Shown piece by piece: positions 1 to 29,162 of a stretch of DNA of 64,000 nt. The stretch is from NCBI GenBank assembly GCA_000002445.1, contig CP000070.1:736001-800000 (forward strand), read 5' to 3'. The position numbers and the translations under genes were made by a program. Origin of the DNA: Trypanosoma brucei (taxonomy: Eukaryota). Under the pieces are notes generated by a model that saw only the letters and a list, made by a program, of their open reading frames with translations, did no database searches and was not told the DNA's origin. The stretch's first letter is position 1; each line of letters opens with the position of its first letter.

Positions 1-86
1 CTCCATTTGTGTGAGGTGGTGCGGACTTGCCGTGTGCACACACAATGTGGTTGTTGTGCATGTGCACGTATCTGTGCTTCCTTTAG

Positions 87-662
<576 letters not shown>

Positions 663-995
663 ATAGAGTAACTCACAGTCGGTCTGGTGAATATCCCGCG
701 ACCTGGAAATAGTTAGATGCCTATGCGGATCCCTCACTGCATCCCTTACGGGATTGTTGCGAGTGAGCCCGCAAACTGTTTACTTCACTCCCTTTTTTTC
801 TTGTTTTTTCTTGATTGTGTGTGTTGTTGGCACTTTTGTCCACAAATCACATTCACCATTTTCTCAATAATTGTTGTGTGGCTCGGTTGTATTTATCGAC
901 AATGTGTGCCTCCATTTGTGTGAGGTGGTGCGGACTTGCCGTGTGCACACACAATGTGGTTGTTGTGCATGTGCACGTATCTGTGCTTCCTTTAG

Positions 996-1571
<576 letters not shown>

Positions 1572-1904
1572 ATAGAGTAACTCACAGTCGGTCTGGTGAA
1601 TATCCCGCGACCTGGAAATAGTTAGATGCCTATGCGGATCCCTCACTGCATCCCTTACGGGATTGTTGCGAGTGAGCCCGCAAACTGTTTACTTCACTCC
1701 CTTTTTTTCTTGTTTTTTCTTGATTGTATGTGTTGTTGGCACTTTTGTCCACAAATCACATTCACCATTTTCTCAATAATTGTTGTGTGGCTCGGTTGTA
1801 TTTATCGACAATGTGTGCCTCCATTTGTGTGAGGTGGTGCGGACTTGCCGTGTGCACACACAATGTGGTTGTTGTGCATGTGCACGTATCTGTGCTTCCT
1901 TTAG

Positions 1905-2480
<576 letters not shown>

Positions 2481-2812
2481 ATAGAGTAACTCACAGTCGG
2501 TCTGGTGAATATCCCGCGACCTGGAAATAGTTAGATGCCTATGCGGATCCCTCACTGCATCCCTTACGGGATTGTTGCGAGTGAGCCCGCAAACTGTTTA
2601 CTTCACTCCCTTTTTTTTGTTTTTTTCTTGATTGTATGTGTTGTTGGCACTTTTGTCCACAAATCACATTCACCATTTTCTCAATAATTGTTGTGTGGCT
2701 CGGTTGTATTTATCGACAATGTGTGCCTCCATTTGTGTGAGGTGGTGCGGACTTGCCGTGTGCACACACAATGTGGTTGTTGTGCATGTGCACGTGTCTG
2801 TGCTTCCTTTAG

Positions 2813-3388
<576 letters not shown>

Positions 3389-3721
3389 ATAGAGTAACTC
3401 ACAGTCGGTCTGGTGAATATCCCGCGACCTGGAAATAGTTAGATGCCTATGCGGATCCCTCACTGCATCCCTTACGGGATTGTTGCGAGTGAGCCCGCAA
3501 ACTGTTTACTTCACTCCCTTTTTTTTTGTTTTTTTCTTGATTGTATGTGTTGTTGGCACTTTTGTCCACAAATCACATTCACCATTTTCTCAATAATTGT
3601 TGTGTGGCTCGGTTGTATTTATCGACAATGTGTGCCTCCATTTGTGTGAGGTGGTGCGGACTTGCCGTGTGCACACACAATGTGGTTGTTGTGCATGTGC
3701 ACGTGTCTGTGCTTCCTTTAG

Positions 3722-4297
<576 letters not shown>

Positions 4298-4635
4298 ATA
4301 GAGTAACTCACAGTCGGTCTGGTGAATATCCCGCGACCTGGAAATAGTTAGATGCCTATGCGGATCCCTCACTGCATCCCTTACGGGATTGTTGCGAGTG
4401 AGCCCGCAAACTGTTTACTTCACTCCCTTTTTTTTCTTGTTTTTTCTTGATTGTGTGTGTTGTTGGCACTTTTGTCCACAAATCACATTCACCATTTTCT
4501 CAATAATTGTTGTGTGGCTCGGTTGTATTTATCGACAATGTGTGCCTCCATTTGTGTGAGGTGGTGCGGACTTGCCGTGTGCGGACAAATATATTTTTTA
4601 TTAGCTTTTCCTTTTTTTCTTTTTTTTTTTAGGTC

Positions 4636-8792: not shown

Positions 8793-11267
8793 ATGCCCGT
8801 CTCCCTTACTTCAGTCACCACCGATGGAAGAACCAACACCGTCCCGAAACTTCGTCCGTACCAGCAGGAGCTGTTTGAGAAGGCGATACGTGGAGACTCT
8901 ATTATTTACCTTCCAACTGGTGGGGGTAAGACAGTGGTTGCTGCGGCGATCGCACACTATATGCGACGTAAACACGAGAAACGGATAGTCTTCGTCGTGA
9001 ATCGTGTTCCATTGGTGGCACAACAGGCAAAAGTGCTTGAAAGCGTTTTGGGGAAAGGGTCTCGGGTGGCGACAGTTCGTGGCGGTAAGAAATCCGTAAA
9101 GAGCTGGAGTGTGTTGGTGGATGAAGGATGCGATGGCGTTGTTATCACCGATTCCATATTTCACGAGTGGATTATCGGTTCCCCCAAAGCAATCACGGAG
9201 GACACGTGCCTGGTGGTCATCGACGAAGTTCATAACGCTACTGGTGGCTGTCTAAAAAAAATTTTCGAGTATATACATAGAATATGTCCCCGAGAGCCGC
9301 AAAGGTGTGCCTCCAATGATGGCGTCAGCGAACCAACTCTTCCCCTCCTTCTTGGTCTTACTGCTTCACCCGTTTTGTCCTTCACCAGGTCGGACTCGCT
9401 GAACAAACTCATCGACGTGACGCGCTGTCGCATCGTGAATGTGACGGAGAAGATGGACAATCTGCTTCAAGAAGTGCCTTTACCGTTAACTGTAGGAGTG
9501 GAGTATTACCTCTCGCCTCCCGAAGAAGCATTTCTGTTTTATTTGCAGAGAGCCGCAGTGGCCCTACAGGATAATCTCAAAGTAAAGAAAAATGCACATT
9601 TAAGGGCGGGGTTTGCTTGTCCGGTGGCTTCTGATGGTTACATTAATAGGTGTAATGAGATAAAAGTAAAAGCGTGCAGTGGGACAAGCGGCGAGGTTGA
9701 TAGGTTTGCGTACAGTATTGCTACGTTCTTACTTTGTGTGTCCCAAGCTTTCGTTAAACTAAACGAGGTCTCGCTCGGTAGTGCATACAAAACCGTCATG
9801 GATGATAAATTGTTTAAGTCGTTGCAAGAAAGTCCAGAATCGGCGGAGCTTGTTGTACCGATTCTTGAGGGTCTGATGAAGTTGCTACGGGAAAGCAGGC
9901 ACAAGTATCCGGAAAGAGATCCAGGGCAGGACGATTCCTCAGTGGGTTTTGACCCATTTGAGGTATCTTCAAGGGTCCAGTTTTTATTGCAGTTGCTTAG
10001 TTGGATTGGCAAACATGTGGAAGCTAATCATGTAGAAGTGGCTGGCATCATTTTCTGCGATACTCGTGCTTCCGTGTTCCGTATTACTGAAGCTATTGAG
10101 AAGATTCCCACGCTGAGCTCATTGTATAAGCCCCGAGCGCTCGTAGGGAAGGGGAAAACGCTAGTTGATGGGGAAGAAAAGGGTATGACCGATGCCCAAC
10201 AGAGGGATGTTATAGATGAATTCCGGAAGGGCAATACAAGGCTTTTGGTGGCGACGTCCCTAGCTGAAGAGGGACTAGACATCGCCCAGTGCAACCTTGT
10301 TATTAGATATGACTCTTGTGTTTCACTTCGTAGTTTCGTACAAAGTCGTGGGAGGGCCAGGCGGAGGAATGCACTCTTTATCGTTTTTGAGCATGCCCGT
10401 CGGGAGATTAAAGTTGCGGCTGTGGCGATGAAGGCGGTGCGTCTCCAGGATTTTCTTGTGAACGCTGTCCGTGATGCGATTGAGGTGGGGACTCGGCGGG
10501 CCCCCAGAGTTTGGGAGGAATCTCCGAAGTTTTGGTTACGTCGGTTTGAGCGCCGCCACAATGCACCGATTGAGAGGAAGGAGACGGACTGCCGTACGGA
10601 TTTTGGAAGCCACACGCACCCGTTTATTGTAGAGCTCACTGTTACGATACCAAATAACTCTAGTCCTGAAAAAATTGTGATTCCTAAACCGTACGAGGGG
10701 AAGACCATTTCTGTAAAAGCGTCGGGCGGCCGTGTGAAAGCGCGGCAGTATGCCGAATATCAACTCTGTGAGGAACTAGACAAGAGGGGGATACTCATTG
10801 GTGAGGATGGTGAAAGGGCCCGCAGCATTTCAACGATGAAGATGCTGTCCAACGGAATTTTGGTATGTGAGGAGGGATCCCTCTCTACGTCGGAGCTTCG
10901 GAAGCTTTTTTCTCGGAATCCAACTGCAATAGAAACTTATGATAGGAAGGACTGGGGGCCCCACACTCCCTCTTCTGTCCTGCGGGATTCTCTCCGTCGT
11001 CGTCGTTTGCCTGCGCCAGAAATTCACATCAATCGCTCAGGGGACGAGACTAGAGCTGAAATTTATGTGTATATGCGGAGGGACGAAAAAATTGAGCAAA
11101 GAAGGTTTGCTGCAAGCGGGGTTTGTGCTTTGGAGGAGGCAGCGATGAAGGCGCTAAAACATATGAAAATTCAGCTATTTACTGGCACTGGCCACGTCGA
11201 GACCACGGATGACATTGGTAGCAGGGATTTAGCTTGGGAAAGTGAAACCAGCGAATCCGAGAATTAA
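8793..11267 (+). CDS. DExH-box helicase of the Dicer/RIG-I/FANCM (Hef-like) clade with two C-terminal dsRBD-like regions
   Basis: Motif I LPTGGGKT preceded by LRPYQQELFEKAI (the PYQ/Q-motif typical of Dicer/RIG-I/Hef helicases). Motif II VIDEVHNA (DEVH). Helicase-C LVATSLAEEGLDIAQCNLVIRYD. Motif VI QSRGRARRR (closest to the Dicer QSRGRAR). C-terminal segments GGRVKARQYAEYQLCEEL and ASGVCALEEAAMKALKHM resemble dsRBD helix alpha2 (GxGxSKKxAKxxAAxxALxxL). Confidence 0.8.
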   Translation: MPVSLTSVTTDGRTNTVPKLRPYQQELFEKAIRGDSIIYLPTGGGKTVVAAAIAHYMRRKHEKRIVFVVNRVPLVAQQAKVLESVLGKGSRVATVRGGKKSVKSWSVLVDEGCDGVVITDSIFHEWIIGSPKAITEDTCLVVIDEVHNATGGCLKKIFEYIHRICPREPQRCASNDGVSEPTLPLLLGLTASPVLSFTRSDSLNKLIDVTRCRIVNVTEKMDNLLQEVPLPLTVGVEYYLSPPEEAFLFYLQRAAVALQDNLKVKKNAHLRAGFACPVASDGYINRCNEIKVKACSGTSGEVDRFAYSIATFLLCVSQAFVKLNEVSLGSAYKTVMDDKLFKSLQESPESAELVVPILEGLMKLLRESRHKYPERDPGQDDSSVGFDPFEVSSRVQFLLQLLSWIGKHVEANHVEVAGIIFCDTRASVFRITEAIEKIPTLSSLYKPRALVGKGKTLVDGEEKGMTDAQQRDVIDEFRKGNTRLLVATSLAEEGLDIAQCNLVIRYDSCVSLRSFVQSRGRARRRNALFIVFEHARREIKVAAVAMKAVRLQDFLVNAVRDAIEVGTRRAPRVWEESPKFWLRRFERRHNAPIERKETDCRTDFGSHTHPFIVELTVTIPNNSSPEKIVIPKPYEGKTISVKASGGRVKARQYAEYQLCEELDKRGILIGEDGERARSISTMKMLSNGILVCEEGSLSTSELRKLFSRNPTAIETYDRKDWGPHTPSSVLRDSLRRRRLPAPEIHINRSGDETRAEIYVYMRRDEKIEQRRFAASGVCALEEAAMKALKHMKIQLFTGTGHVETTDDIGSRDLAWESETSESEN

Positions 11268-12549
11268 TTATGTATCCCCTCAGCGAAAAACATTCTGTAT
11301 GAACGGTGGTTGTTCCGATTGTTAGGAATGGGGTTGGTGGGGGGACGTTTCACATGCGTGGCAATCGTCCCTCTTATTATTCCTCCTCGTAAACTCCACT
11401 GCCCATCTGAGGCATTGCCCCAAGAACCATATTTCTGGACGTGGTAAGCGCATGTGAACAAAAGGGACGATATCATCTCCATCAGGTGAGGATATTCTCT
11501 TTTCTACGAATCATGGATATGCGAGGGAGACAATAACGGATAAACTTACCGACGTCACCACTCACTTTAGGAAAATGGCAGTTGCGGAGATGTTAAAGGC
11601 CCAAGCATGTTTTCTACCTTTTCCTTTTAAAAAAAGAACGGAATATGAGAGGGAAAATAAACGGAAAGGGGGTAAGAGCCTCAGTTCAAGGGAGAAGAGA
11701 ATACTAGACCTCTTTTAACACCCTGATGTACAGCATCACCGCCACCGACTTTCAGCCGCAGGTTTTTCCCTTCCCTCACTTGTCGTGGCGAAAATTGTGT
11801 GTGGCTACAATGGAGCAAGGTAACTTGCACCGCATGTTTCTCATTTTGAAAGGATTGTTGGCATTAATATTGCTTTCTCGTTTTGTTTTGTTGTTACAAT
11901 ACAGAGCCTCTGCACCGAGGCGACTTATGAGTGTGTGTTTTACATAAAAATATGTGCATGTCTTCGTCACCCTGCTGCTCCCAGTGAAAGAATGCGTCCT
12001 GTAGGGTAAAACCCTGAAGTAGTCCGTGACTTTGCCACTCTCTTAGATCACAGTTGTTAATTATTAAATTATCTACTGACATGGCTGCTCCTACATGAAG
12101 TAAGGGTAGAGATCAAATAGTTTATAATAAAATACTTCTCGTAAACACTTGCTTGCTTTTTGCGTGTTACAAACCTGTCTTCACCAAGGAAAAAAAGTCA
12201 CTCAATCTTGTTATTCTCATTAGTCTTTCGACACCCCTTCATTTTGAGGAAACAACGAATCATTACGATTTCTTTATTTATATTGTAGACAATTGCTCCC
12301 TCATTCAAGTCCTATGCATGATCTACAATTTTCTCGGATCTCTTCCACATTTCACAGAAGGGTCACGTCACGAAGGAGAACATGTGTATGCATACCGGTT
12401 CACTGCCGCTTTGTCAAATACGTACTGTGTTTTTGTACTAGCACCCAAACTCTTCCCTTCCCTTTATCCTTCTCTCTGCCCCAGTGTCATTTTAAGCAAC
12501 AAAGACTAACCAAACAGGAATATTAATATATCTTACAAACGTTTTCACC

Positions 12550-13122
12550 ATGCGCCGGTCTGTATATCAGCTAAGCAAGGAACTCCCAATCTCTGAGGAC
12601 GAGGTTGCGTGTCTGGTGAAGAAGGTGATGCGTGAATGCCCATCAGCCTTCAATTCCCAATCCTCACGTGCTGTGATCCTCTTTGGAGAGCAACACACAA
12701 AGCTATGGAACCTAACGAAGGATAAGCTAAAGGCGACAGTGAAACCCGATTCCTACAATGAGGCCGCCAAGAAGATTGATGGGTGCTTCGCCCCCGCTGC
12801 CGGTACCATATTGTTTTTCGAGGATAAAAGTGTTGTTGAAGGACTTGTCAAGTCGTACCCCGCATACGCAGAAGGTTTCCCAGTGTGGTCAACTGAATCA
12901 TCAGGTATGGCTCAATTCGCCGTGTGGACAGCACTTGCAGAAAAAGGTATCGGTGCGTCTCTGCAGCACTACACATCACTGATCGGTGAGGCGGTGACGG
13001 CGGAGTGGAAGCTTCCGGCAACATGGGAGATGCATGCACAAATGCCATTTGGAAAGCCACTGGAGAAGTGTGGCGAGAAGACGTACATGCCGGATGAAGA
13101 ACGCTTTAAGGTGTTTAAATAA
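12550..13122 (+). CDS. Small nitroreductase-like protein of the Hbn1/Frm2 type (nitroreductase superfamily), paralog A
   Basis: 190 aa. ECPSAFNSQSSRAVILFGEQHTKLWN matches the yeast Hbn1/Frm2 core (PTAFNSQPNRAVILTGETHKKVWD). LQHYTSLIGEAV ~ LQHYNGYIKAAL. C-terminal GEKTYMPDE ~ GEKTYIKND. Same length class as yeast Frm2/Hbn1 (~193 aa). Confidence 0.8.
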   Translation: MRRSVYQLSKELPISEDEVACLVKKVMRECPSAFNSQSSRAVILFGEQHTKLWNLTKDKLKATVKPDSYNEAAKKIDGCFAPAAGTILFFEDKSVVEGLVKSYPAYAEGFPVWSTESSGMAQFAVWTALAEKGIGASLQHYTSLIGEAVTAEWKLPATWEMHAQMPFGKPLEKCGEKTYMPDEERFKVFK

Positions 13123-13952
13123 AGTTCGTTGATATTTTTACCGTACTTGATCACACACATGTATTCCTCCATGGACTGATCTTATTTACACTCTTGGTGT
13201 TATTCACCCTCCTTTAAGCACCAATTTCTTTGCAATACATGCATATACATGTTGGTTTTGGGGCACCTTTATATTGTTATCCAACTGCTTTTTTTGTTCG
13301 CCACGCTTTTCCACTTCTTACCTTTTACACACTAGGTTAATTTGGGCACCGCGTGAGGTTAATATGACCAAATGTATGTTTCTCATGTTTTCCCTTCGTT
13401 TAGCGAGGCAAATGTATTGAAGAAAGTGTCGTGGTTGGGGTAAGTGGTGTTACACGCACGACGTGTTCGTTACCCACCCTTTCCACCCTCTTCTCATGCT
13501 TCTGCACTTCTTTACTTTTTTGTTCATTCGTTTATATACATATATACATATATATTTACGTGTTCTGGCTTCTACGATTTTTAAAAAACACGTATCGCTA
13601 TAATTATAAGCGTGTACGCACTTATTTTTTTGTTATCGCTCTATATACATGTGGTGCATAATACAAGGTGTCTCATTATCACTAGAGGTTTCTTAGGTAC
13701 CGTACCCCGGTCATGTAGCATGATGTAGAGGGATGAGAGTCGATATGAATATAATAAATGATGCTTGTAAGGATGATTTGACCAACTACCGCTTTCGTAC
13801 ACGTGTGTATTTTTGCATGCTTGTGTTTTATCTGCTTTGTTTATTGTAACCCATTTAAATCATATTTTTTTGTTCACTTCTGTTGTCTTTTTGTCACTGT
13901 TGAATTGTTCCCATTGAGTTAGCTGAATTTCATTGGTTTTTGGAGTTATCAC

Positions 13953-14138
13953 ATGATGTACGTGCTTGTAGCCGTGGCCATGTTGGCAATATTCTTCGCA
14001 GCTTTAGTGCTGTTTTTACGCGGTAAGTTATCTGCTGGATCAGTTGCCACGAGCAACGGTGGAATTGGCAGTGATTCTGGGCTGATGCCCGGTGAGTCAG
14101 TCACTACGAGAGTTCGTCGTGCTCGGAAGGAGGAATAA
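13953..14138 (+). CDS. Small ORF (61 aa) encoding a single-pass TM peptide with a charged C-terminal tail; hypothetical
   Basis: MMYVLVAVAMLAIFFAALVLFLRGKLS...RVRRARKEE. Sits in a 1.66-kb intergenic space with an upstream polyY tract (ttttttgttcacttctgttgtctttttgtcactg) and is conserved identically in the duplicate (26622..26807). There is no independent evidence of expression. Confidence 0.25.
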   Translation: MMYVLVAVAMLAIFFAALVLFLRGKLSAGSVATSNGGIGSDSGLMPGESVTTRVRRARKEE

Positions 14139-14468
14139 CGATTATCATCCAACAGTGAATATGAGCGGTTGGTGGCGCCTCAGGTGACACGGTTTGTTCG
14201 CAAGATTCGTGCCGCCGCGTTATTTGTTTCCGATTGAGCGCATATGCCGCAGTTAGGTAAATGTTCGGTTGGTGTTGCTGTGGATCTACTGATGTGATCT
14301 GTTGTTGTTGTGTTGTTTTTGAAGAACATTTTTTTAAATACCTTATATTTGTTTTTAATTCTCTCTTCCTTTTTTGTTACACTAATGTGGCCGTAAAGCA
14401 TCCTTAATTAATATTTTGGTTGCCATTGTTAGGTGTCTCCGCAGTTATGTTTACTGTTGGTAATGAAA

Positions 14469-14490
14469 CTATTCTTATTATTATTATTAT
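14469..14490 (+). repeat. (TTA)7 microsatellite; (TTA)5 with ttcttatta in the duplicate at ~27133
   Basis: ttattattattattattattattc vs ttcttattattattattattc; this is the only length polymorphism of its kind between the duplicated segments. Confidence 0.9.
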
Positions 14491-14782
14491 TATTATTCTT
14501 TTTCTATCCCTTGGCCTTCACCATTATCTTTTTTTTCTTACTTTTGTGACTTCTATGTTTTCAATGGCTACTCAACCTCCCTCCACAGCAGTGCTGTGAT
14601 CTTATCATTTCTCCTGCAAATCCCTGCCGTACATTGTGGTGCTTTCTATATTCTGTCGGCGGAAGCACTCGTGGTAAAAGAGGGGGTAGGGAAAGAGGGA
14701 AACGTGACGAAAGAAGTGGATAGCGTTGAATAACTTGAGAGGCACAATTGTGGAGAGGTTAGATACGAAAGAGTAGTGGAGG

Positions 14783-15721
14783 GTGGGGATCATGTCAAAC
14801 CCACCTAAGCACTACAGTGTGGAGTCATTGCGGACGGTTGGGCTTCTGCCTGCGCAACTGGCCTTGTCCCGTAAGCCACGTCTTCGCCCACACGTAGGTA
14901 ATCTCAAGGGTCTTGTTTACCCTCTACCGTATTACGCAATGTGGCGTGGTAATCACAACAAATACACATATAACAAAAGCACTGTGTGTCTATGGGGAGA
15001 AGGCGATACCCGTTCCATGTACCATCAACATTATGCTCATGCAAAGTGCCCGACGGACTACGGGCGTGGTGGAAGAGAATTTGAATACCTTACAGTGAAG
15101 CGTGGTAAGATGTTACAGAAACCGCTACCGCGGGTGCAATACGTGGCGGAAGGGTCCAAGCCGGTGTGGCTCTTCAAGTCGTGGCATACGCCTCTCAGCT
15201 CACCAAGCATGTGGGAACGAGAGGTTCAGTACGCCGAGCATACACCAGAGCATATTGGTGCCAAGCGGCCGCTTGCAGTAGTCGCACCACGTACAATGCA
15301 TCGCTACCTGTTTCTTATGCATATGGAAAAGGTGACCATTACTGTATCCCCTCTGTTGTTTGGTTATGGTCACACCATACAGAAAGCTGTGTTGGATTTC
15401 TACCGCCGTGCTATAAGTGCTCGCTCTCCATTCCCAAAGGATAAAGTGTTTCTCTTTTATGCCATTGATCACATTACACCTCGTATTGAAGTGACATGGC
15501 TGGATGGGACGTCATATGTTCCACCTGTGTTGGAGGGTGCAAGTTCGCAAGACCTCATTCAGATGGTGATGGAAGAGGCTTGGTTGGCTGCAGATCGCAT
15601 GGCTGCGGAAGGCCGTGTGCTCAATCCGTTAGCAATTGACGATTATAAGTGGGATCAGTTGGTTGTGTTTAAAAAGGTACGGGATAAGGAAGCGAGCAAG
15701 GGTGGTGGCAGAAAGAAGTAA
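14783..15721 (+). CDS. Conserved hypothetical protein (312 aa), basic C-terminus; paralog A
   Basis: Long ORF with coding-like composition and an identical copy at 27449..28387. Ends in a basic KKVRDKEASKGGGRKK tail. No recognisable domain by eye; it could be an organellar/ribosome-associated protein. Confidence 0.6.
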   Translation: MGIMSNPPKHYSVESLRTVGLLPAQLALSRKPRLRPHVGNLKGLVYPLPYYAMWRGNHNKYTYNKSTVCLWGEGDTRSMYHQHYAHAKCPTDYGRGGREFEYLTVKRGKMLQKPLPRVQYVAEGSKPVWLFKSWHTPLSSPSMWEREVQYAEHTPEHIGAKRPLAVVAPRTMHRYLFLMHMEKVTITVSPLLFGYGHTIQKAVLDFYRRAISARSPFPKDKVFLFYAIDHITPRIEVTWLDGTSYVPPVLEGASSQDLIQMVMEEAWLAADRMAAEGRVLNPLAIDDYKWDQLVVFKKVRDKEASKGGGRKK

Positions 15722-17376
15722 GGGATAGGAATTTGTTTGGGTTAGGGGTGGTGGCACCGTGGCCGATTTTTATTTTCCAGTTGTGGTTGTTGTTTTATGG
15801 TACCTCACTTACCCCTTTCCTTTAATTCACAGCTCTTACCGTAGTGTAACTCCTTGTTTTTGCACTTTACGCCAGGTGTGGATGTTGAGTGTTACATTGG
15901 GTTGGTCATTGCCATGCTGATATATATGTGTGCTTTCATTGAAAGTTCATACGGATACTAATATCTTTTCTTTTCATTTACGTTATCACGATATGACGGT
16001 GGTGTTTGTGCCGTTATTGTATTTTGCATCGTGTATGATCCCTTTTCATTTCTCTCTTTCCTCTTTTTCCTCTATTTCACAACACTACTTTAACCTACCG
16101 ACTGACCGAAGTTTAGTGAAGAGGATTGAAACACGACAGGATTAAGCAAAAGGAAAGAAACAGGAAACAGTGTAAGGTGGAAAGGTAGAGTTGTAGGAGG
16201 GACCAAGAAAACGTGTTTGGGCGAAAGGGAAGTTGGGGATTTCTGCATTAAAGGGGAAGTAATGTTTGGCTTTTCAAATTGATTTGTTGGAATTTTGTTT
16301 TTGTGCAAGGTGTGTTGCCGTGTCACTATGTTTATAATGGAGGCTAATTCTATGGGTGCTTGCCTTGTTTGTGCAATCTTTTCCATTTCGTGTTGTATCT
16401 GATCTTATGAACTTCGTCTGGTTTATCCGCTAATAACGTTGTTAATGTAAATGGCAACCATGCGTCGCCCTTTCGGTTTTAAAAAAAACGAACAACTATA
16501 TTCTTTGCCCTTGGTATTTCCATTCCTCAATTTCTCTTTTCTTTTTGTCGCCTTCTCTAGGTGTAGTAAACGCACCGGACTACGCGAAATATAAGACGAC
16601 GGAGGGAAAGAGGATTACATACACGCTACACGAAGGAAAGGGCTTATCATTATTAATTTTCGTGCATTACTTTATTTATCCCGATTTCTCATTCCCCTCT
16701 TTCGTTAGCACCTCCTCTTCCCCTCCCCTTGAGAGTGAAGGGAAGGGAGGTAACGGGTGATTACCAACTGTTTTCGGTGTGACGTGGCCGATCCACCCGT
16801 GTAAGGAACCGGCTTTCACTTTGAGAGACTCTAACGTTCCCGTGTTGGGTCTAAGGAGGGAGGAAACCGGTAGCGACGGGGTATTTAAGACAACTACTTT
16901 TTTTGCGGTAAAAGTGGGCTGGACGTTAGGAAGAAGACGAAGAGGAACCGTGCGTAAAAAAGGTTGTTGTGAGTGAGGTTCCGCTATAGAGGCTAAATAA
17001 GGGTGAGGAGGGTTGTAGGCCCGAAGGGTAGTTGGGTGCTGTGTCACCTGCAGGGAGGAGGTGCGACTACAATTTCGTCAATAGCATCGCTAGTGTTAGT
17101 TACGTTTAGTGTAAAGGCAGAACTGTTTCTAGGGATTGGACTCCGCTAGAACAACGGAACGTGAAGAGTTGCATTTACACAACTCAGTGAGAATTGAGGG
17201 TTGAGGACCCGACGAGAAACCTACGGAGCCGGGGAAAAGAAATCAGTTGCCACAGAACGTTATTTTCATACCCACCATATACTACAGTTTTCCTTAATAT
17301 ATTATTGACTGTTTTTTTTTTTTTAAAGCTACCCAACGACGTGGGTTTCGACTCCTGATAGATTGCAGCCTCTTGC

Positions 17377-24965: not shown

Positions 24966-25226
24966 ACTGTACCATAAGTTGTTCAGACGATTGGTTACAG
25001 CAAAGGTACGGTACACTATACATTCCTGCACATCAAGGGTCACATCACGAAGGAGAGCATGTGTATGCATACCGGTTCACTGCCGCTTTGTCAAATACGT
25101 ACTGTGTTTTTGTACTAGCACCCAAACTCTTCCCTTCCCTTTATCCTTCTCTCTGCCCCAGTGTCATTTTAAGCAACAAAGACTAACCAAACAGGAATAT
25201 TAATATATCTTACAAACGTTTTCACC

Positions 25227-25799
25227 ATGCGCCGGTCTGTATATCAGCTAAGCAAGGAACTCCCAATCTCTGAGGACGAGGTTGCGTGTCTGGTGAAGAA
25301 GGTGATGCGTGAATGCCCATCAGCCTTCAATTCCCAATCCTCACGTGCTGTGATCCTCTTTGGAGAGCAACACACAAAGCTATGGAACCTAACGAAGGAT
25401 AAGCTAAAGGCGACAGTGAAACCCGATTCCTACAATGAGGCCGCCAAGAAGATTGATGGGTGCTTCGCCCCCGCTGCCGGTACCATATTGTTTTTGGAGG
25501 ATAAAAGTGTTGTTGAAGGACTTGTCAAGTCGTACCCCGCATACGCAGAAGGTTTCCCAGTGTGGTCAACTGAATCATCAGGTATGGCTCAATTCGCCGT
25601 GTGGACAGCACTTGCAGAAAAAGGTATCGGTGCGTCTCTGCAGCACTACACATCACTGATCGGTGAGGCGGTGACGGCGGAGTGGAAGCTTCCGGCAACA
25701 TGGGAGATGCATGCACAAATGCCATTTGGAAAGCCACTGGAGAAGTGTGGCGAGAAGACGTACATGCCGGATGAAGAACGCTTTAAGGTGTTTAAATAA
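25227..25799 (+). CDS. Small nitroreductase-like protein of the Hbn1/Frm2 type, paralog B
   Basis: Identical to paralog A except for one substitution (ILFFEDK -> ILFLEDK; ttc->ttg). Confidence 0.8.
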   Translation: MRRSVYQLSKELPISEDEVACLVKKVMRECPSAFNSQSSRAVILFGEQHTKLWNLTKDKLKATVKPDSYNEAAKKIDGCFAPAAGTILFLEDKSVVEGLVKSYPAYAEGFPVWSTESSGMAQFAVWTALAEKGIGASLQHYTSLIGEAVTAEWKLPATWEMHAQMPFGKPLEKCGEKTYMPDEERFKVFK

Positions 25800-26621
25800 A
25801 GTTCGTTGATATTTTTACCGTACTTGATCACACACATGTATTCCTCCATGGACTGATCTTATTTACACTCTTGGTGTTATTCACCCTCCTTTAAGCACCA
25901 ATTTCTTTGCAATACATGCATATACATGTTGGTTTTGGGGCACCTTTATATTGTTATCCAACTGCTTTTTTTGTTCGCCACGCTTTTCCACTTCTTACCT
26001 TTTACACACTAGGTTAATTTGGGCACCACGTGAGGTTAATATGAACAAATGTATGTTTCTCATGTTTTCCCTTCGTTTAGCGAGGCAAATGTATTGAAGA
26101 AAGTGTCGTGGTTGGGGTAAGTGGTGTTACACGCACGACGTGTTCGTTACCCACCCTTTCCACCCTCTTCTCATGCTTCTGCACTTCTTTACTTTTTTGT
26201 TCATTCGTTTATATACATATATATTTACGTGTTCTGGCTTCTACGATTTTTAAAAAACACGTATCGCTATAATTATAAGCGTGTACGCACTTATTTTTTT
26301 GTTATCGCTCTATATACATGTGGTGCATAATACAAGGTGTCTCATTATCACTAGAGGTTTCTTAGGTACCGTACCCCGGTCATGTAGCATGATGTAGAGG
26401 GATGAGAGTCGATATGAATATAATAAATGATGCTTGTAAGGATGATTTGACCAACTACCGCTTTCGTACACGTGTGTATTTTTGCATGCTTGTGTTTTAT
26501 CTGCTTTGTTTATTGTAACCCATTTAAATCATATTTTTTTGTTCACTTCTGTTGTCTTTTTGTCACTGTTGAATTGTTCCCATTGAGTTAGCTGAATTTC
26601 ATTGGTTTTTGGAGTTATCAC

Positions 26622-26807
26622 ATGATGTACGTGCTTGTAGCCGTGGCCATGTTGGCAATATTCTTCGCAGCTTTAGTGCTGTTTTTACGCGGTAAGTTAT
26701 CTGCTGGATCAGTTGCCACGAGCAACGGTGGAATTGGCAGTGATTCTGGGCTGATGCCCGGTGAGTCAGTCACTACGAGAGTTCGTCGTGCTCGGAAGGA
26801 GGAATAA
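26622..26807 (+). CDS. Small ORF (61 aa) TM peptide, duplicate copy
   Basis: Identical to 13953..14138. Confidence 0.25.
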   Translation: MMYVLVAVAMLAIFFAALVLFLRGKLSAGSVATSNGGIGSDSGLMPGESVTTRVRRARKEE

Positions 26808-27448
26808 CGATTATCATCCAACAGTGAATATGAGCGGTTGGTGGCGCCTCAGGTGACACGGTTTGTTCGCAAGATTCGTGCCGCCGCGTTATTTGTTTCC
26901 GATTGAGCGCATATGCCGCAGTTAGGTAAATGTTCGGTTGGTGTTGCTGTGGATCTACTGATGTGATCTGTTGTTGTTGTGTTGTTTTTGAAGAACATTT
27001 TTTTAAATACCTTATATTTGTTTTTAATTCTCTCTTCCTTTTTTGTTACACTAATGTGGCCGTAAAGCATCCTTAATTAATATTTTGGTTGCCATTGTTA
27101 GGTGTCTCCGCAGTTATGTTTACTGTTGGTAATGAAACTATTCTTCTTATTATTATTATTATTCTTTTTCTATCCCTTGGCCTTCACCATTATCTTTTTT
27201 TTCTTACTTTTGTGACTTCTATGTTTTCAATGGCTACTCAACCTCCCTCCGCAGCAGTGCTGTGATCTTATCATTTCTCCTGCAAATCCCTGCCGTACAT
27301 TGTGGTGCTTTCTATATTCTGTCGGCGGAAGCACTCGTGGTAAAAGAGGGGGTAGGGAAAGAGGGAAACGTGACGAAAGAAGTGGATAGCGTTGAATAAC
27401 TTGAGAGGCACAATTGTGGAGAGGTTAGATACGAAAGAGTAGTGGAGG

Positions 27449-28387
27449 GTGGGGATCATGTCAAACCCACCTAAGCACTACAGTGTGGAGTCATTGCGGA
27501 CGGTTGGGCTTCTGCCTGCGCAACTGGCCTTGTCCCGTAAGCCACGTCTTCGCCCACACGTAGGTAATCTCAAGGGTCTTGTTTACCCTCTACCGTATTA
27601 CGCAATGTGGCGTGGTAATCACAACAAATACACATATAACAAAAGCACTGTGTGTCTATGGGGAGAAGGCGATACCCGTTCCATGTACCATCAACATTAT
27701 GCTCATGCAAAGTGCCCGACGGACTACGGGCGTGGTGGAAGAGAATTTGAATACCTTACAGTGAAGCGTGGTAAGATGTTACAGAAACCGCTACCGCGGG
27801 TGCAATACGTGGCGGAAGGGTCCAAGCCGGTGTGGCTCTTCAAGTCGTGGCATACGCCTCTCAGCTCACCAAGCATGTGGGAACGAGAGGTTCAGTACGC
27901 CGAGCATACACCAGAGCATATTGGTGCCAAGCGGCCGCTTGCAGTAGTCGCACCACGTACAATGCATCGCTACCTGTTTCTTATGCATATGGAAAAGGTG
28001 ACCATTACTGTATCCCCTCTGTTGTTTGGTTATGGTCACACCATACAGAAAGCTGTGTTGGATTTCTACCGCCGTGCTATAAGTGCTCGCTCTCCATTCC
28101 CAAAGGATAAAGTGTTTCTCTTTTATGCCATTGATCACATTACACCTCGTATTGAAGTGACATGGCTGGATGGGACGTCATATGTTCCACCTGTGTTGGA
28201 GGGTGCAAGTTCGCAAGACCTCATTCAGATGGTGATGGAAGAGGCTTGGTTGGCTGCAGATCGCATGGCTGCGGAAGGCCGTGTGCTCAATCCGTTAGCA
28301 ATTGACGATTATAAGTGGGATCAGTTGGTTGTGTTTAAAAAGGTACGGGATAAGGAAGCGAGCAAGGGTGGTGGCAGAAAGAAGTAA
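27449..28387 (+). CDS. Conserved hypothetical protein (312 aa), paralog B
   Basis: Protein identical to 14783..15721. Confidence 0.6.
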   Translation: MGIMSNPPKHYSVESLRTVGLLPAQLALSRKPRLRPHVGNLKGLVYPLPYYAMWRGNHNKYTYNKSTVCLWGEGDTRSMYHQHYAHAKCPTDYGRGGREFEYLTVKRGKMLQKPLPRVQYVAEGSKPVWLFKSWHTPLSSPSMWEREVQYAEHTPEHIGAKRPLAVVAPRTMHRYLFLMHMEKVTITVSPLLFGYGHTIQKAVLDFYRRAISARSPFPKDKVFLFYAIDHITPRIEVTWLDGTSYVPPVLEGASSQDLIQMVMEEAWLAADRMAAEGRVLNPLAIDDYKWDQLVVFKKVRDKEASKGGGRKK

Positions 28388-29162
28388 GGGATAGGAATTT
28401 GTTTGGGTTAGGGGTGGTGGCACCGTGGCCGATTTTTATTTTCCAGTTGTGGTTGTTGTTTTATGGTACCTCACTTACCCCTTTCCTTTAATTCACAGCT
28501 CTTACCGTAGTGTAACTCCTTGTTTTTGCACTTTACGCCAGGTGTGGATGTTGAGTGTTACATTGGGTTGGTCATTGCCATGCTGATATATATGTGTGCT
28601 TTCATTGAAAGTTCATACGGATACTAATATCTTTTCTTTTCATTTACGTTATCACGATATGACGGTGGTGTTTGTGCCGTTATTGTATTTTGCATCGTGT
28701 ATGATCCCTTTTCATTTCTCTCTTTCCTCTTTTTCCTCTATTTCACAACACTACTTTAACCTACCGACTGACCGAAGTTTAGTGAAGAGGATTGAAACAC
28801 GACAGGATTAAGCAAAAGGAAAGAAACAGGAAACAGTGTAAGGTGGAAAGGTAGAGTTGTAGGAGGGACCAAGAAAACGTGTTTGGGCGAAAGGGAAGTT
28901 GGGGATTTCAGGAGGTGAACTCAGGAGCAACATATATATATATCTTTGTTTTTGTGTGCGAGGGTGTTGATCGTTTGGGGAAGCGGGAAGGAGCTGCTAA
29001 GAGTTACTTCTTCGTTTCTTGAGGCAGAATCCTACTCTAGGGTTTGCTATCTTATCTGAGGGGAGGAGGCGACTTCCCGGATAGTGAAGGAGGAAAGAAA
29101 ATTATTGGTTGAAGTTAAGGAGAGTGATTGCATACACAGGGTCAAGTAGGAAACTGTCCTAG

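What the first reader, a model, noticed from the sequence alone, without database searches (positions are those of the whole stretch)
8793..11267. Stand-alone Dicer/RIG-I-type DExH helicase with C-terminal dsRBD-like motifs: a candidate for the Dicer helicase module missing from the trypanosome RNAi machinery
The helicase core carries the motif set that distinguishes the Dicer/RIG-I/Hef clade. The motifs are a PYQ Q-motif, DEVH, and QSRGRARRR, which is almost exactly the Dicer motif VI. After the core come two segments whose helix alpha2 regions resemble dsRBDs. As far as I recall, the characterised T. brucei Dicer-like RNase III enzymes lack an N-terminal helicase domain. A separately encoded DRH-like helicase with dsRNA-binding modules would therefore be a plausible trans-acting partner. 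An alternative is a Hef/FANCM-like fork-remodelling helicase. The domain order (helicase, then dsRBDs, with no nuclease) is unusual in either case.
Basis: partly seen in the sequence, partly recalled or inferred. Interest (0 to 1): 0.6.

Follow-up and report, generated by a model that had tools for sequence, protein, structure and literature searches.

The report
Stand-alone Dicer-type helicase in trypanosomes
Trypanosoma brucei gene Tb927.7.2970 encodes, as a separate protein, the helicase-plus-DUF283 front half that its Dicer enzymes are reported to lack, which makes it a testable but still unproven candidate accessory factor for RNA interference.

Summary
The ORF is real: 8793-11267, + strand, 824 aa, identical to Tb927.7.2970 on T. 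brucei chromosome 7.

Profile, fold and tree analyses place the helicase core in the Dicer/RIG-I-like clade, far from Hef. It groups with Dicer helicases (NJ bootstrap 87%; 4% with RLRs). No eukaryotic FANCM was in the profile or tree sets.

Homology to Dicer continues past the helicase and pincer into the first C-terminal domain (C1). C1 matches Dicer's DUF283 in position, predicted fold and profile (hhalign P=1.4e-5). A second dsRBD-fold domain (C2) follows. There is no PAZ, RNase III, RIG-I C-terminal domain, ERCC4 or HhH.

The protein is therefore the homologue of Dicer's N-terminal half encoded on its own. The family is small and, among named members, kinetoplastid-only (Bodo saltans plus six Trypanosoma species).

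Every named Trypanosoma carrier has RNAi genes reported. However, T. melophagium, which keeps all five core RNAi genes, has cleanly lost the helicase, and none was detected in Leishmaniinae. It cannot be a core RNAi factor; an accessory role is plausible but untested. T. cruzi status is unresolved.

No publication on this gene or architecture was found.

The parts
8793..11267 (+). Complete ORF, 824 aa plus stop; Tb927.7.2970.
   Evidence: ORF list; 100% identity to the T. brucei TREU927 protein; in-frame stops upstream of the ATG.
8844..9437 (+). Hel1 (RecA-like domain 1, aa 18-215). Carries the Q motif LRPYQ (8850-8864), motif I PTGGGKT (8913-8933), motif II DEVH (9222-9233) and motif III TASP (9360-9371).
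   Evidence: Pfam DEAD 1.3e-15 and ResIII 2.1e-15; motif coordinates; conservation across the family; model.
9516..9905 (+). All-helical insertion domain between the two RecA lobes (Hel2i-like, aa 242-371).
   Evidence: AF2 model secondary structure, pLDDT mostly 88-97. Aligned within the collinear hhalign matches to Dicer and RLR profiles. Foldseek top hits are RLR and Dicer helicases.
9969..10394 (+). Hel2 (RecA-like domain 2, aa 393-534). Carries motif V ATSLAEEGLD (10251-10280) and motif VI QSRGRARRR (10341-10367).
   Evidence: Pfam Helicase_C 1.7e-16.
10413..10484 (+). Long 'pincer'-like helix (aa 541-564) that connects Hel2 to the C-terminal domains.
   Evidence: AF2 model helix H541-564. 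The hhalign match to RLRs ends here, whereas the match to Dicers continues through it.
10512..10793 (+). C1 (aa 574-667): a dsRBD-fold domain homologous to Dicer DUF283 (Dicer_dimer). In trypanosomes it has insertions in the beta-strand loops.
   Evidence: alpha-beta-beta-beta-alpha in two models. hhalign against DUF283 gives P=7.8e-5 and 1.4e-5, with reversed controls at 0.1-0.5. It lands on DUF283 within the whole Dicer N-terminal profile (P=2.6e-4) and finds nothing in the RLR or Hef profiles. The only Pfam touch is Dicer_dimer at E about 0.18, below threshold. The C-terminal (A3) profile hits two multi-dsrm proteins over the C1 region at E=1e-10 and 1.9e-5 library-wide.
10800..10955 (+). 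Linker or mini-domain (aa 670-721), lower confidence, function unknown.
   Evidence: Short helices and strands with pLDDT 49-85. Poorly conserved.
10956..11183 (+). C2 (aa 722-797): second, non-canonical dsRBD-fold domain with an Arg-rich helix alpha1 and no KKxAK-type motif at helix alpha2.
11187..11264 (+). Acidic, disordered C-terminal tail (aa 799-824).
   Evidence: pLDDT below 50. Not conserved.

Best explanation
Tb927.7.2970 is a stand-alone homologue of the N-terminal half of Dicer. It has a RIG-I-like-family SF2 helicase (Hel1, Hel2i, Hel2, pincer) with all ATPase motifs intact. This is followed directly by a DUF283-type dsRBD-fold domain and then a second, non-canonical dsRBD-fold domain. 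It has no PAZ and no RNase III. This part is shown.

The following is inferred by analogy with Dicer-2, plant DCL and ancestral Dicer helicases. The protein is an ATP-driven dsRNA-binding motor that recognises or translocates along long dsRNA. Its DUF283-like and dsRBD-like domains hold dsRNA and/or dock a partner protein. It most likely works in trans as an accessory, dispensable subunit for the helicase-less trypanosome Dicer-like enzymes (DCL1 and/or DCL2). There it would improve the handling of long or blunt-ended dsRNA without being needed for dicing itself.

The evolutionary origin would be either fission of an ancestral full-length Dicer in the kinetoplastid lineage or retention of a helicase-DUF283 gene that never fused.
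For: Identity
- PDB sequence hits are led by an ancestral Dicer helicase, MDA5, LGP2 and RIG-I.
- The Foldseek top 50 for the full model are all RLR, Dicer or DRH-1 structures.
- Profile-profile against the Dicer N-terminal half gives E=5e-64, collinear over aa ~22-667 and running through the pincer into DUF283. Against RLRs it gives E=1.6e-61 but stops in the pincer. Against Hef it gives only E=1.1e-36.
- In the NJ tree the family groups with Dicers at 87% bootstrap.
- C1 matches DUF283 at P=1.4e-5, but matches the Dicers' own C-terminal dsrm only at P=0.06.
- ATPase motifs are conserved in all family members from Bodo saltans to Trypanosoma.

Context
- TbDCL1 is described as having only two RNase III domains (PMC7827160).
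- DUF283 is a known partner-docking domain in Dicers (same paper).
- All named Trypanosoma carriers have RNAi genes reported: T. brucei and T. congolense (PMC3359990), T. vivax (AGO1 predicted, PMC2965760), T. grayi (PMC5737535), and T. rangeli AM80 and T. conorhini (PMC6201504; strain confirmed).
- The published comparative screen for RNAi factors required presence in L. braziliensis, so it could not have found this gene. The same paper describes HEN1 as an RNAi factor that is absent from L. braziliensis and dispensable.
Against: - No experimental data on this gene were found.
- T. melophagium has all five core RNAi genes (PMC9099014), yet the helicase is absent at the syntenic site with no detectable remnant.
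- No family member was detected in Leishmaniinae by an exhaustive C-terminal profile search, although L. braziliensis and Crithidia make siRNAs (PMC2965760). RNAi therefore does not need this protein.
- Conserved ATPase motifs do not prove activity. [quoted passage not shown]
- The C1-DUF283 link is below Pfam's own threshold (E about 0.18).
- C2 has no significant sequence match to anything.
- The tree is neighbour-joining with limited sampling and no eukaryotic FANCM.
- Trypanosome polycistronic gene order carries no functional information.
Confidence: 0.45

Rival explanations
1. It is a DCL-independent dsRNA helicase. It would sense or remodel dsRNA, for example viral dsRNA or sense/antisense duplexes from convergent transcription, in the manner of RLRs or nematode DRH proteins. 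Its dsRBD-fold domains would serve RNA recognition, and it would not feed substrates to Dicer-like enzymes.
For: The helicase core scores almost as well against RLRs as against Dicers (E=1.6e-61 vs 5e-64). The top structural neighbours include MDA5, LGP2, RIG-I and DRH-1. Loss in RNAi-gene-positive T. melophagium and non-detection in Leishmaniinae fit a function separable from the core RNAi pathway.
Against: There is no RIG-I C-terminal regulatory domain and no CARDs. Grouping with RLRs has only 4% bootstrap support. The domain after the pincer is DUF283-like, which is a Dicer feature. No downstream signalling partners of this kind are known in kinetoplastids (own knowledge).
Confidence: 0.3
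2. [quoted passage not shown] Its degenerate dsRBD folds would serve only as protein-interaction modules, and its Dicer ancestry would have no bearing on its present function.
Against: Repeated clean loss in whole lineages argues against a housekeeping role. Bodonid C1 domains keep a KKAR/SKAR motif at the position of the canonical RNA-binding motif. All characterised relatives of this helicase clade act on dsRNA (established knowledge of Dicer and RLR helicases).
Confidence: 0.15
3. It is a Hef/FANCM/Mph1-like DNA fork-remodelling helicase.
For: The best NCBIfam match is Hef nuclease, but at 124 bits against a cut-off of 610. Archaeal Hef proteins appear among the distant sequence hits.
Against: The Hef profile scores far lower than the Dicer or RLR profiles (305 vs 519 and 509) and aligns only to aa ~537. 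Hef forms the outgroup at 100% bootstrap. There is no ERCC4, HhH or Hef-type insertion-domain hit. The C-terminus is made of dsRBD folds. No FANCM or Hef structure appears in the Foldseek top 50.
Confidence: 0.04

Closest known systems
N-terminal helicase-DUF283 module of canonical Dicers (Drosophila Dicer-2, plant DCL4, fungal Dicers, the reconstructed ancestral animal Dicer helicase AncD1D2)
   Same: It has the same SF2 core with a helical insertion domain and a pincer, the same motif set, and the same domain order with a DUF283-type dsRBD fold directly after the pincer. The profile alignment is collinear over about 640 residues. It is sister to Dicers in the tree.
   Different: It is encoded as a separate 824-aa protein with no platform, PAZ or RNase III domains. 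It carries an extra C-terminal dsRBD-fold domain. The trypanosome copies have loop insertions in C1. Sequence identity to Dicers is only about 21-23%.
RIG-I-like receptors and nematode Dicer-related helicases (LGP2, MDA5, RIG-I, DRH-1, DRH-3)
   Same: They are stand-alone helicases of the same clade whose C-terminal domains recognise RNA. LGP2 has a comparably simple architecture. DRH proteins work alongside a Dicer in trans (own knowledge). Core similarity is nearly as high as to Dicers.
   Different: The C-terminus consists of dsRBD folds, not the zinc-binding RIG-I C-terminal domain. Pfam RIG-I_C-RD gives no hit. There are no CARDs. Grouping with RLRs has 4% bootstrap support. RLR and DRH proteins are regarded as an animal family (own knowledge).
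MLE / DHX9 (RNA helicase A) and dsRBP Dicer cofactors (Loqs, TRBP, R2D2)
   Same: Tandem dsRBD folds are combined with, or work alongside, an RNA helicase. These are the best structural matches for the C-terminal region.
   Different: MLE and DHX9 are DEAH/RHA helicases with the dsRBDs at the N-terminus, so there is no homology of the cores. Loqs, TRBP and R2D2 have no helicase. This is resemblance of parts, not family membership.
Archaeal Hef / eukaryotic FANCM-Mph1
   Same: The SF2 core is distantly related, and Hef-like helicases are thought to be ancestral to the Dicer/RLR group. phmmer gives Hef 8.5e-21 and FANCM 6.4e-18.
   Different: There is no ERCC4 nuclease and no HhH. The profile score is much lower, and Hef is the outgroup in the tree.

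Membership tests
Dicer | Two RNase III domains | tested here: not met
   There is no Ribonuclease_3 or Ribonucleas_3_3 hit at E<=1, and the protein ends at aa 824. Genuine Dicers scanned the same way give 1e-37 to 1e-47.
Dicer | PAZ/platform domain | tested here: not met
   There is no PAZ hit. The region after C1 folds as a short linker plus a dsRBD fold.
Dicer N-terminal module (helicase + DUF283) | RIG-I-like-family SF2 core with Hel1, a helical insertion (Hel2i), Hel2 and a pincer | tested here: met
   hhalign against the Dicer N-terminal profile gives E=5e-64. The tree groups the family with Dicers at 87%.
Dicer N-terminal module (helicase + DUF283) | DUF283 (Dicer_dimer) domain immediately after the pincer | tested here: met
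   Position: C1 starts 49 aa after Helicase_C ends, against 49-85 aa in seven Dicers. Fold: alpha-beta-beta-beta-alpha. Profile-profile: P=1.4e-5, and the match lands on DUF283 within the whole Dicer profile. Caveat: Pfam's own model reaches only E about 0.18, below its gathering score.
Dicer N-terminal module (helicase + DUF283) | dsRNA-dependent ATPase or translocase activity | not testable with these tools
   Only motif conservation could be shown. Biochemistry is needed.
RIG-I-like receptors / DRH | C-terminal regulatory domain (RIG-I_C-RD, zinc-binding) | tested here: not met
   There is no PF11648 hit at E<=1, whereas the LGP2, RIG-I and DRH hits all carry it. The hhalign match to RLRs stops in the pincer. 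The C-terminal fold is dsRBD.
RIG-I-like receptors / DRH | Phylogenetic placement of the core within RLRs | tested here: not met
   The bipartition grouping the family with RLRs has 4% bootstrap support, against 87% for grouping with Dicers. The method was NJ with limited sampling.
Hef / FANCM / Mph1 | ERCC4 nuclease(-like) and HhH2 C-terminus, with a Hef-type insertion domain | tested here: not met
   There are no ERCC4, HhH or PF21210 hits. NCBIfam Hef nuclease scores 124 bits against a cut-off of 610. Hef is the outgroup at 100%. Eukaryotic FANCM sequences were not in the tree.
dsRBD superfamily (C1 and C2) | [quoted passage not shown] | tested here: met
dsRBD superfamily (C1 and C2) | Canonical dsRNA-binding residues (KKxAK-type motif at helix alpha2, loop-2 His) and Pfam dsrm membership | tested here: inconclusive
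   Pfam dsrm is not hit. C1 keeps KKAR, SKAR or VKAR at the motif position. C2 has none. C1 matches dsrm-repeat proteins at hhalign P=4e-9. RNA binding was not tested.
Core trypanosomatid RNAi machinery (AGO1, DCL1, DCL2, RIF4, RIF5) | Present in all RNAi-proficient and absent from all RNAi-deficient trypanosomatids | tested here: not met
   It is absent from the syntenic locus of T. melophagium, which has all five core genes (PMC9099014). It is not detected in Leishmaniinae, some of which have functional RNAi (PMC2965760). Absence from RNAi-deficient species could not be checked for T. cruzi.

The most novel reading that the evidence does not exclude
Kinetoplastid Dicer is a natural 'split Dicer'. 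On this reading, the ancestral helicase-DUF283 half survives as this separate gene and assembles in trans with the RNase III-only DCL1 and/or DCL2. Because the module is optional, it has been discarded repeatedly (T. theileri group, Leishmaniinae) without loss of RNAi. A more radical variant is that the gene is a never-fused relic of the state before the helicase and RNase III halves of Dicer were joined.
Probability: 0.3. Interest if true: 0.8.

Novelty: new variant of a known kind. Interest (0 to 1): 0.6.

Why it matters
Trypanosome Dicer-like enzymes are textbook examples of minimal Dicers without a helicase, and five genes are regarded as the complete core RNAi set. If the Dicer helicase-DUF283 module exists as a separate gene, several things follow:

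1. There is a concrete, easily tested candidate for an overlooked accessory RNAi factor in the main model organism for parasite RNAi.
2. Nature would have supplied a separation-of-function experiment on what a Dicer helicase contributes, because related species with and without the module both keep RNAi genes.
3. It adds a data point from a deeply diverging eukaryotic lineage on how Dicer was assembled or taken apart during evolution.
4. It bears on attempts to transplant RNAi into RNAi-negative parasites.

If the protein turns out to be unrelated to RNAi, it would still be a non-animal, stand-alone member of the Dicer/RLR helicase clade with an undescribed architecture.

Tried and rejected
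- **Pfam and NCBIfam on the whole protein.** These gave only generic helicase domains. There was no dsrm, Dicer_dimer, RIG-I_C-RD, ERCC4 or HhH.
- **Word-indexed homologue searches.** I first read these as 'no orthologue in T. grayi or T. vivax'. That was wrong. Synteny and the exhaustive search found both. The index missed all five true family members tested, even though each shared 60-82 five-residue words with the query set. Negative results from those searches were therefore discarded.
- **Retention together with DCL2 in RNAi-dead T. rangeli.** This lead came from PMC4169256 and was dropped. My T. rangeli orthologue comes from strain AM80 (accession MKGL), whose RNAi genes are intact (PMC6201504). 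The status in strain SC58 is unknown.
- **T. cruzi.** I could not resolve this. A copy at about 60% identity would be hidden inside the T. conorhini 50% cluster, and no tool gave access to T. cruzi genomes.
- **Supplement of PMC6201504.** A 'DEAD/H RNA helicase' hit there sits next to an ARD1 gene, not in this synteny block. I judged it to be a different helicase and did not pursue it.
- **Literature.** The gene identifier occurs in no searchable main text. It also does not occur in the held supplements of TrypTag, the T. theileri paper or the T. melophagium paper. Two key papers are not held: Matveyev 2017 and Gargantini 2012.
- **AFDB50 fold search.** This library was unavailable.
- **C2.** It shows no significant sequence similarity to C1, DUF283 or dsrm, so it is not a recognisable internal duplication of C1.
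- **Antisense ORFs inside the gene.** One example is 10028-10708 on the minus strand. I treated these as chance ORFs and did not analyse them further.
Full report
**1. Observation.** The window carries a single uninterrupted ORF at 8793-11267 on the + strand, 824 aa long. The ATG is the first one after in-frame stop codons. Pfam finds DEAD/ResIII (aa 19-167) and Helicase_C (418-525). Nothing else reaches threshold, and the last 290 residues have no hit at all.

**2. The helicase core.**
- By sequence against solved structures, the best matches are a reconstructed ancestral Dicer helicase (2.7e-33), MDA5 (9.4e-33), LGP2 (2.5e-30) and RIG-I (about 1e-27). Hef (8.5e-21) and FANCM (6.4e-18) come well behind.
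- An AlphaFold2 model built on 35 sequences has mean pLDDT 81. It shows Hel1, an all-helical insertion domain (aa 242-371), Hel2 and a long pincer-like helix at 541-564.
- The 50 best Foldseek matches in the PDB are all RLRs, Dicers or DRH-1.
- Profile-profile comparison of the family gives: Dicer N-terminal halves E=5e-64 (score 519); RLRs E=1.6e-61 (score 509); archaeal Hef E=1.1e-36 (score 305).
- A neighbour-joining tree used 39 cores, 452 columns and 200 bootstraps. The kinetoplastid family is monophyletic at 100%. It groups with Dicers at 87% and with RLRs at 4%, and Hef is the outgroup.
- Limits: the tree is distance-based, has few Dicers, and contains no eukaryotic FANCM/Mph1.

**3. 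The C-terminal region.**
- Two independent models, one of the full length and one of aa 566-800 alone, have pLDDT 81 and 82. Both give the same topology: alpha-beta-beta-beta-alpha at 578-664 (C1), a short poorly defined linker, alpha-beta-beta-beta-alpha at 726-790 (C2), and a disordered acidic tail.
- Foldseek's best hits are tandem-dsRBD proteins aligned over 220-283 columns, which means both domains are being matched.

**4. C1 corresponds to Dicer's DUF283.** Four lines of evidence agree.
- Position: in seven Dicers, DUF283 begins 49-85 residues after Helicase_C ends. Here the gap is 49.
- Pfam: the only family C1 touches, in two orthologues that are 30% identical overall, is Dicer_dimer (E about 0.18, below threshold).
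- hhalign: C1 against a DUF283 alignment gives P=7.8e-5 with 7 family sequences and P=1.4e-5 with 14. Reversed controls give 0.1-0.5, and the Dicers' own C-terminal dsrm gives 0.06.
- Collinearity: the full-length alignment to Dicers runs from Hel2 through the pincer into DUF283. C1 is aligned to residues 537-592 of a fungal Dicer whose Pfam DUF283 spans 516-599. The RLR and Hef alignments stop at the pincer or earlier. C1 alone picks exactly the DUF283 region out of the 753-column Dicer profile (P=2.6e-4) and finds nothing in the RLR or Hef profiles.

In addition, the library-wide C-terminal profile search hits two multi-dsrm proteins over the C1 region (E=1e-10 and 1.9e-5). That ties C1 to the dsRBD superfamily by sequence. 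C2 has only faint profile similarity to dsRBDs (P about 0.01). It also lacks the basic motif at helix alpha2, so its assignment rests on the fold.

**5. Distribution.** The word-indexed homologue searches were badly incomplete, so I rely on two other sources: the exhaustive C-terminal profile search of 1.84 billion representatives, and synteny.
- The exhaustive search found 14 proteins. Twelve form the family: T. brucei, T. congolense, T. vivax, T. grayi, T. conorhini (with T. rangeli in the same 50% cluster), Bodo saltans, and environmental sequences that group with Bodo in the tree.
- The locus is syntenic in T. brucei, T. rangeli and T. grayi, in the order AAA ATPase, EF-hand protein, helicase. 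The T. conorhini EF-hand and helicase genes are reported on contigs of identical length, 55,566 bp.
- All ATPase motifs are conserved throughout the family.
- In T. melophagium the EF-hand gene is followed directly by the kinase, which lies downstream of the helicase in T. rangeli and T. grayi. tblastn finds no helicase remnant there.
- No Leishmaniinae protein was detected. The search used the fast-evolving C-terminus, so a copy consisting of the core alone cannot be excluded.
- T. cruzi is unresolved. T. rangeli and T. conorhini are 63% identical, so a T. cruzi copy would be hidden inside their cluster.

**6. Relation to RNAi.** From the literature:
- TbDCL1 contains just two RNase III domains (PMC7827160).
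- The accepted core set is AGO1, DCL1, DCL2, RIF4 and RIF5. [quoted passage not shown] A gene missing from Leishmania could not pass that filter.
- The same paper notes that HEN1 acts in T. brucei RNAi although it is absent from L. braziliensis and dispensable.
- All named Trypanosoma carriers of the helicase have RNAi genes reported: T. brucei and T. congolense (PMC3359990), T. vivax AGO1 (PMC2965760), T. grayi (PMC5737535), and T. rangeli AM80 and T. conorhini (PMC6201504; the MKGL accession is confirmed as AM80).
[quoted passage not shown] L. braziliensis and Crithidia make siRNAs (PMC2965760), and I detect no family member in that lineage.

The pattern fits 'carried only where RNAi genes exist, but not needed for RNAi', which is what an accessory factor would look like. 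It rests on few lineages and lacks the key T. cruzi data point.

**7. Most likely mechanism.**
- Shown: the protein is the homologue of Dicer's N-terminal helicase-DUF283 half, encoded alone, with an extra dsRBD-fold domain and intact ATPase motifs.
- Inferred by analogy with Dicer-2, DCL and ancestral Dicer helicases: it is an ATP-driven motor on dsRNA whose C-terminal domains bind dsRNA and/or dock a partner. DUF283 is a known partner-binding domain (PMC7827160).
- The most economical role is an optional trans-acting subunit for DCL1 and/or DCL2.
- I put about 0.85-0.9 on the identity claim and about 0.35-0.4 on the RNAi-accessory mechanism.
- Rivals are a DCL-independent dsRNA sensor or remodeller (0.3), a helicase in an unrelated RNP process (0.15), and a Hef/FANCM-like DNA enzyme (0.04, nearly excluded).

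**8. Comparison with known families, and novelty.**
- It is not a Dicer: no RNase III and no PAZ (tested, not met).
- It is not an RLR or DRH: no C-terminal regulatory domain, and tree placement not met.
- It is not Hef or FANCM: no ERCC4 or HhH, and Hef is the outgroup.
- It works like, and descends with, the Dicer helicase-DUF283 module.
- I found no paper that mentions the gene or a kinetoplastid Dicer-type helicase or DUF283 protein. Two relevant papers could not be read.
- I rate it a new variant of a known kind, with interest 0.6. It would surprise RNAi specialists moderately, and it makes a specific question directly testable in a tractable organism.

Noticed in passing
window 1-4582: Tandem array of five histone H2A genes with a period of about 909 bp and copies about 99.5% identical. 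H2A also lies upstream of the AAA ATPase gene in the syntenic loci of T. rangeli, T. grayi and T. melophagium.
   Followed up: partly
window 12358-16243 and 25035-28909: A 3.9-kb segmental duplication at 99.5% identity. Each copy carries a 190-aa nitroreductase-family ORF (12550-13122 and 25227-25796; Pfam PF00881, 5.5e-17) and a 312-aa ORF with no Pfam match (14783-15721 and 27449-28384). Neither ORF has a match in the syntenic T. rangeli, T. grayi or T. melophagium loci.
   Followed up: partly
window 11268-17376, compared with L003:9694-10893, L004:14020-15024 and L005:6674-8050: The protein kinase gene lies just downstream of the helicase in T. rangeli and T. grayi, and directly after the EF-hand gene in T. 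melophagium. It has no tblastn match anywhere in the 64-kb T. brucei window. Synteny therefore breaks immediately after the helicase in T. brucei.
   Followed up: partly
P0074 (ENA metagenome, 648 aa) and P0077 (Symbiodinium natans, 625 aa): These proteins carry three or four near-identical repeats that hit both Pfam dsrm and Dicer_dimer. They are the closest non-family match to domain C1 (hhalign P=4e-9). Their function is unknown.
   Followed up: partly
tool behaviour: The word-indexed protein search missed all five true family members tested (T. grayi, T. vivax, Bodo saltans and two environmental sequences). Each shares 60-82 five-residue words with the query set, yet LGP2, which shares 28, was returned. 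Negative results from that tool should not be read as absence.
   Followed up: yes
P0003 (T. rangeli AM80): The 90%-identity cluster of the AM80 helicase has a single member. No near-identical full-length protein from T. rangeli SC58, the strain with pseudogenised RNAi genes, is clustered with it. This may mean the SC58 copy is missing, fragmented or unannotated; it was not checked.
   Followed up: no
L005:6674-8050 (T. melophagium): The kinase orthologue carries long poly-Asn and poly-Thr low-complexity runs at both ends. These are absent from the T. grayi and T. rangeli orthologues.
   Followed up: no
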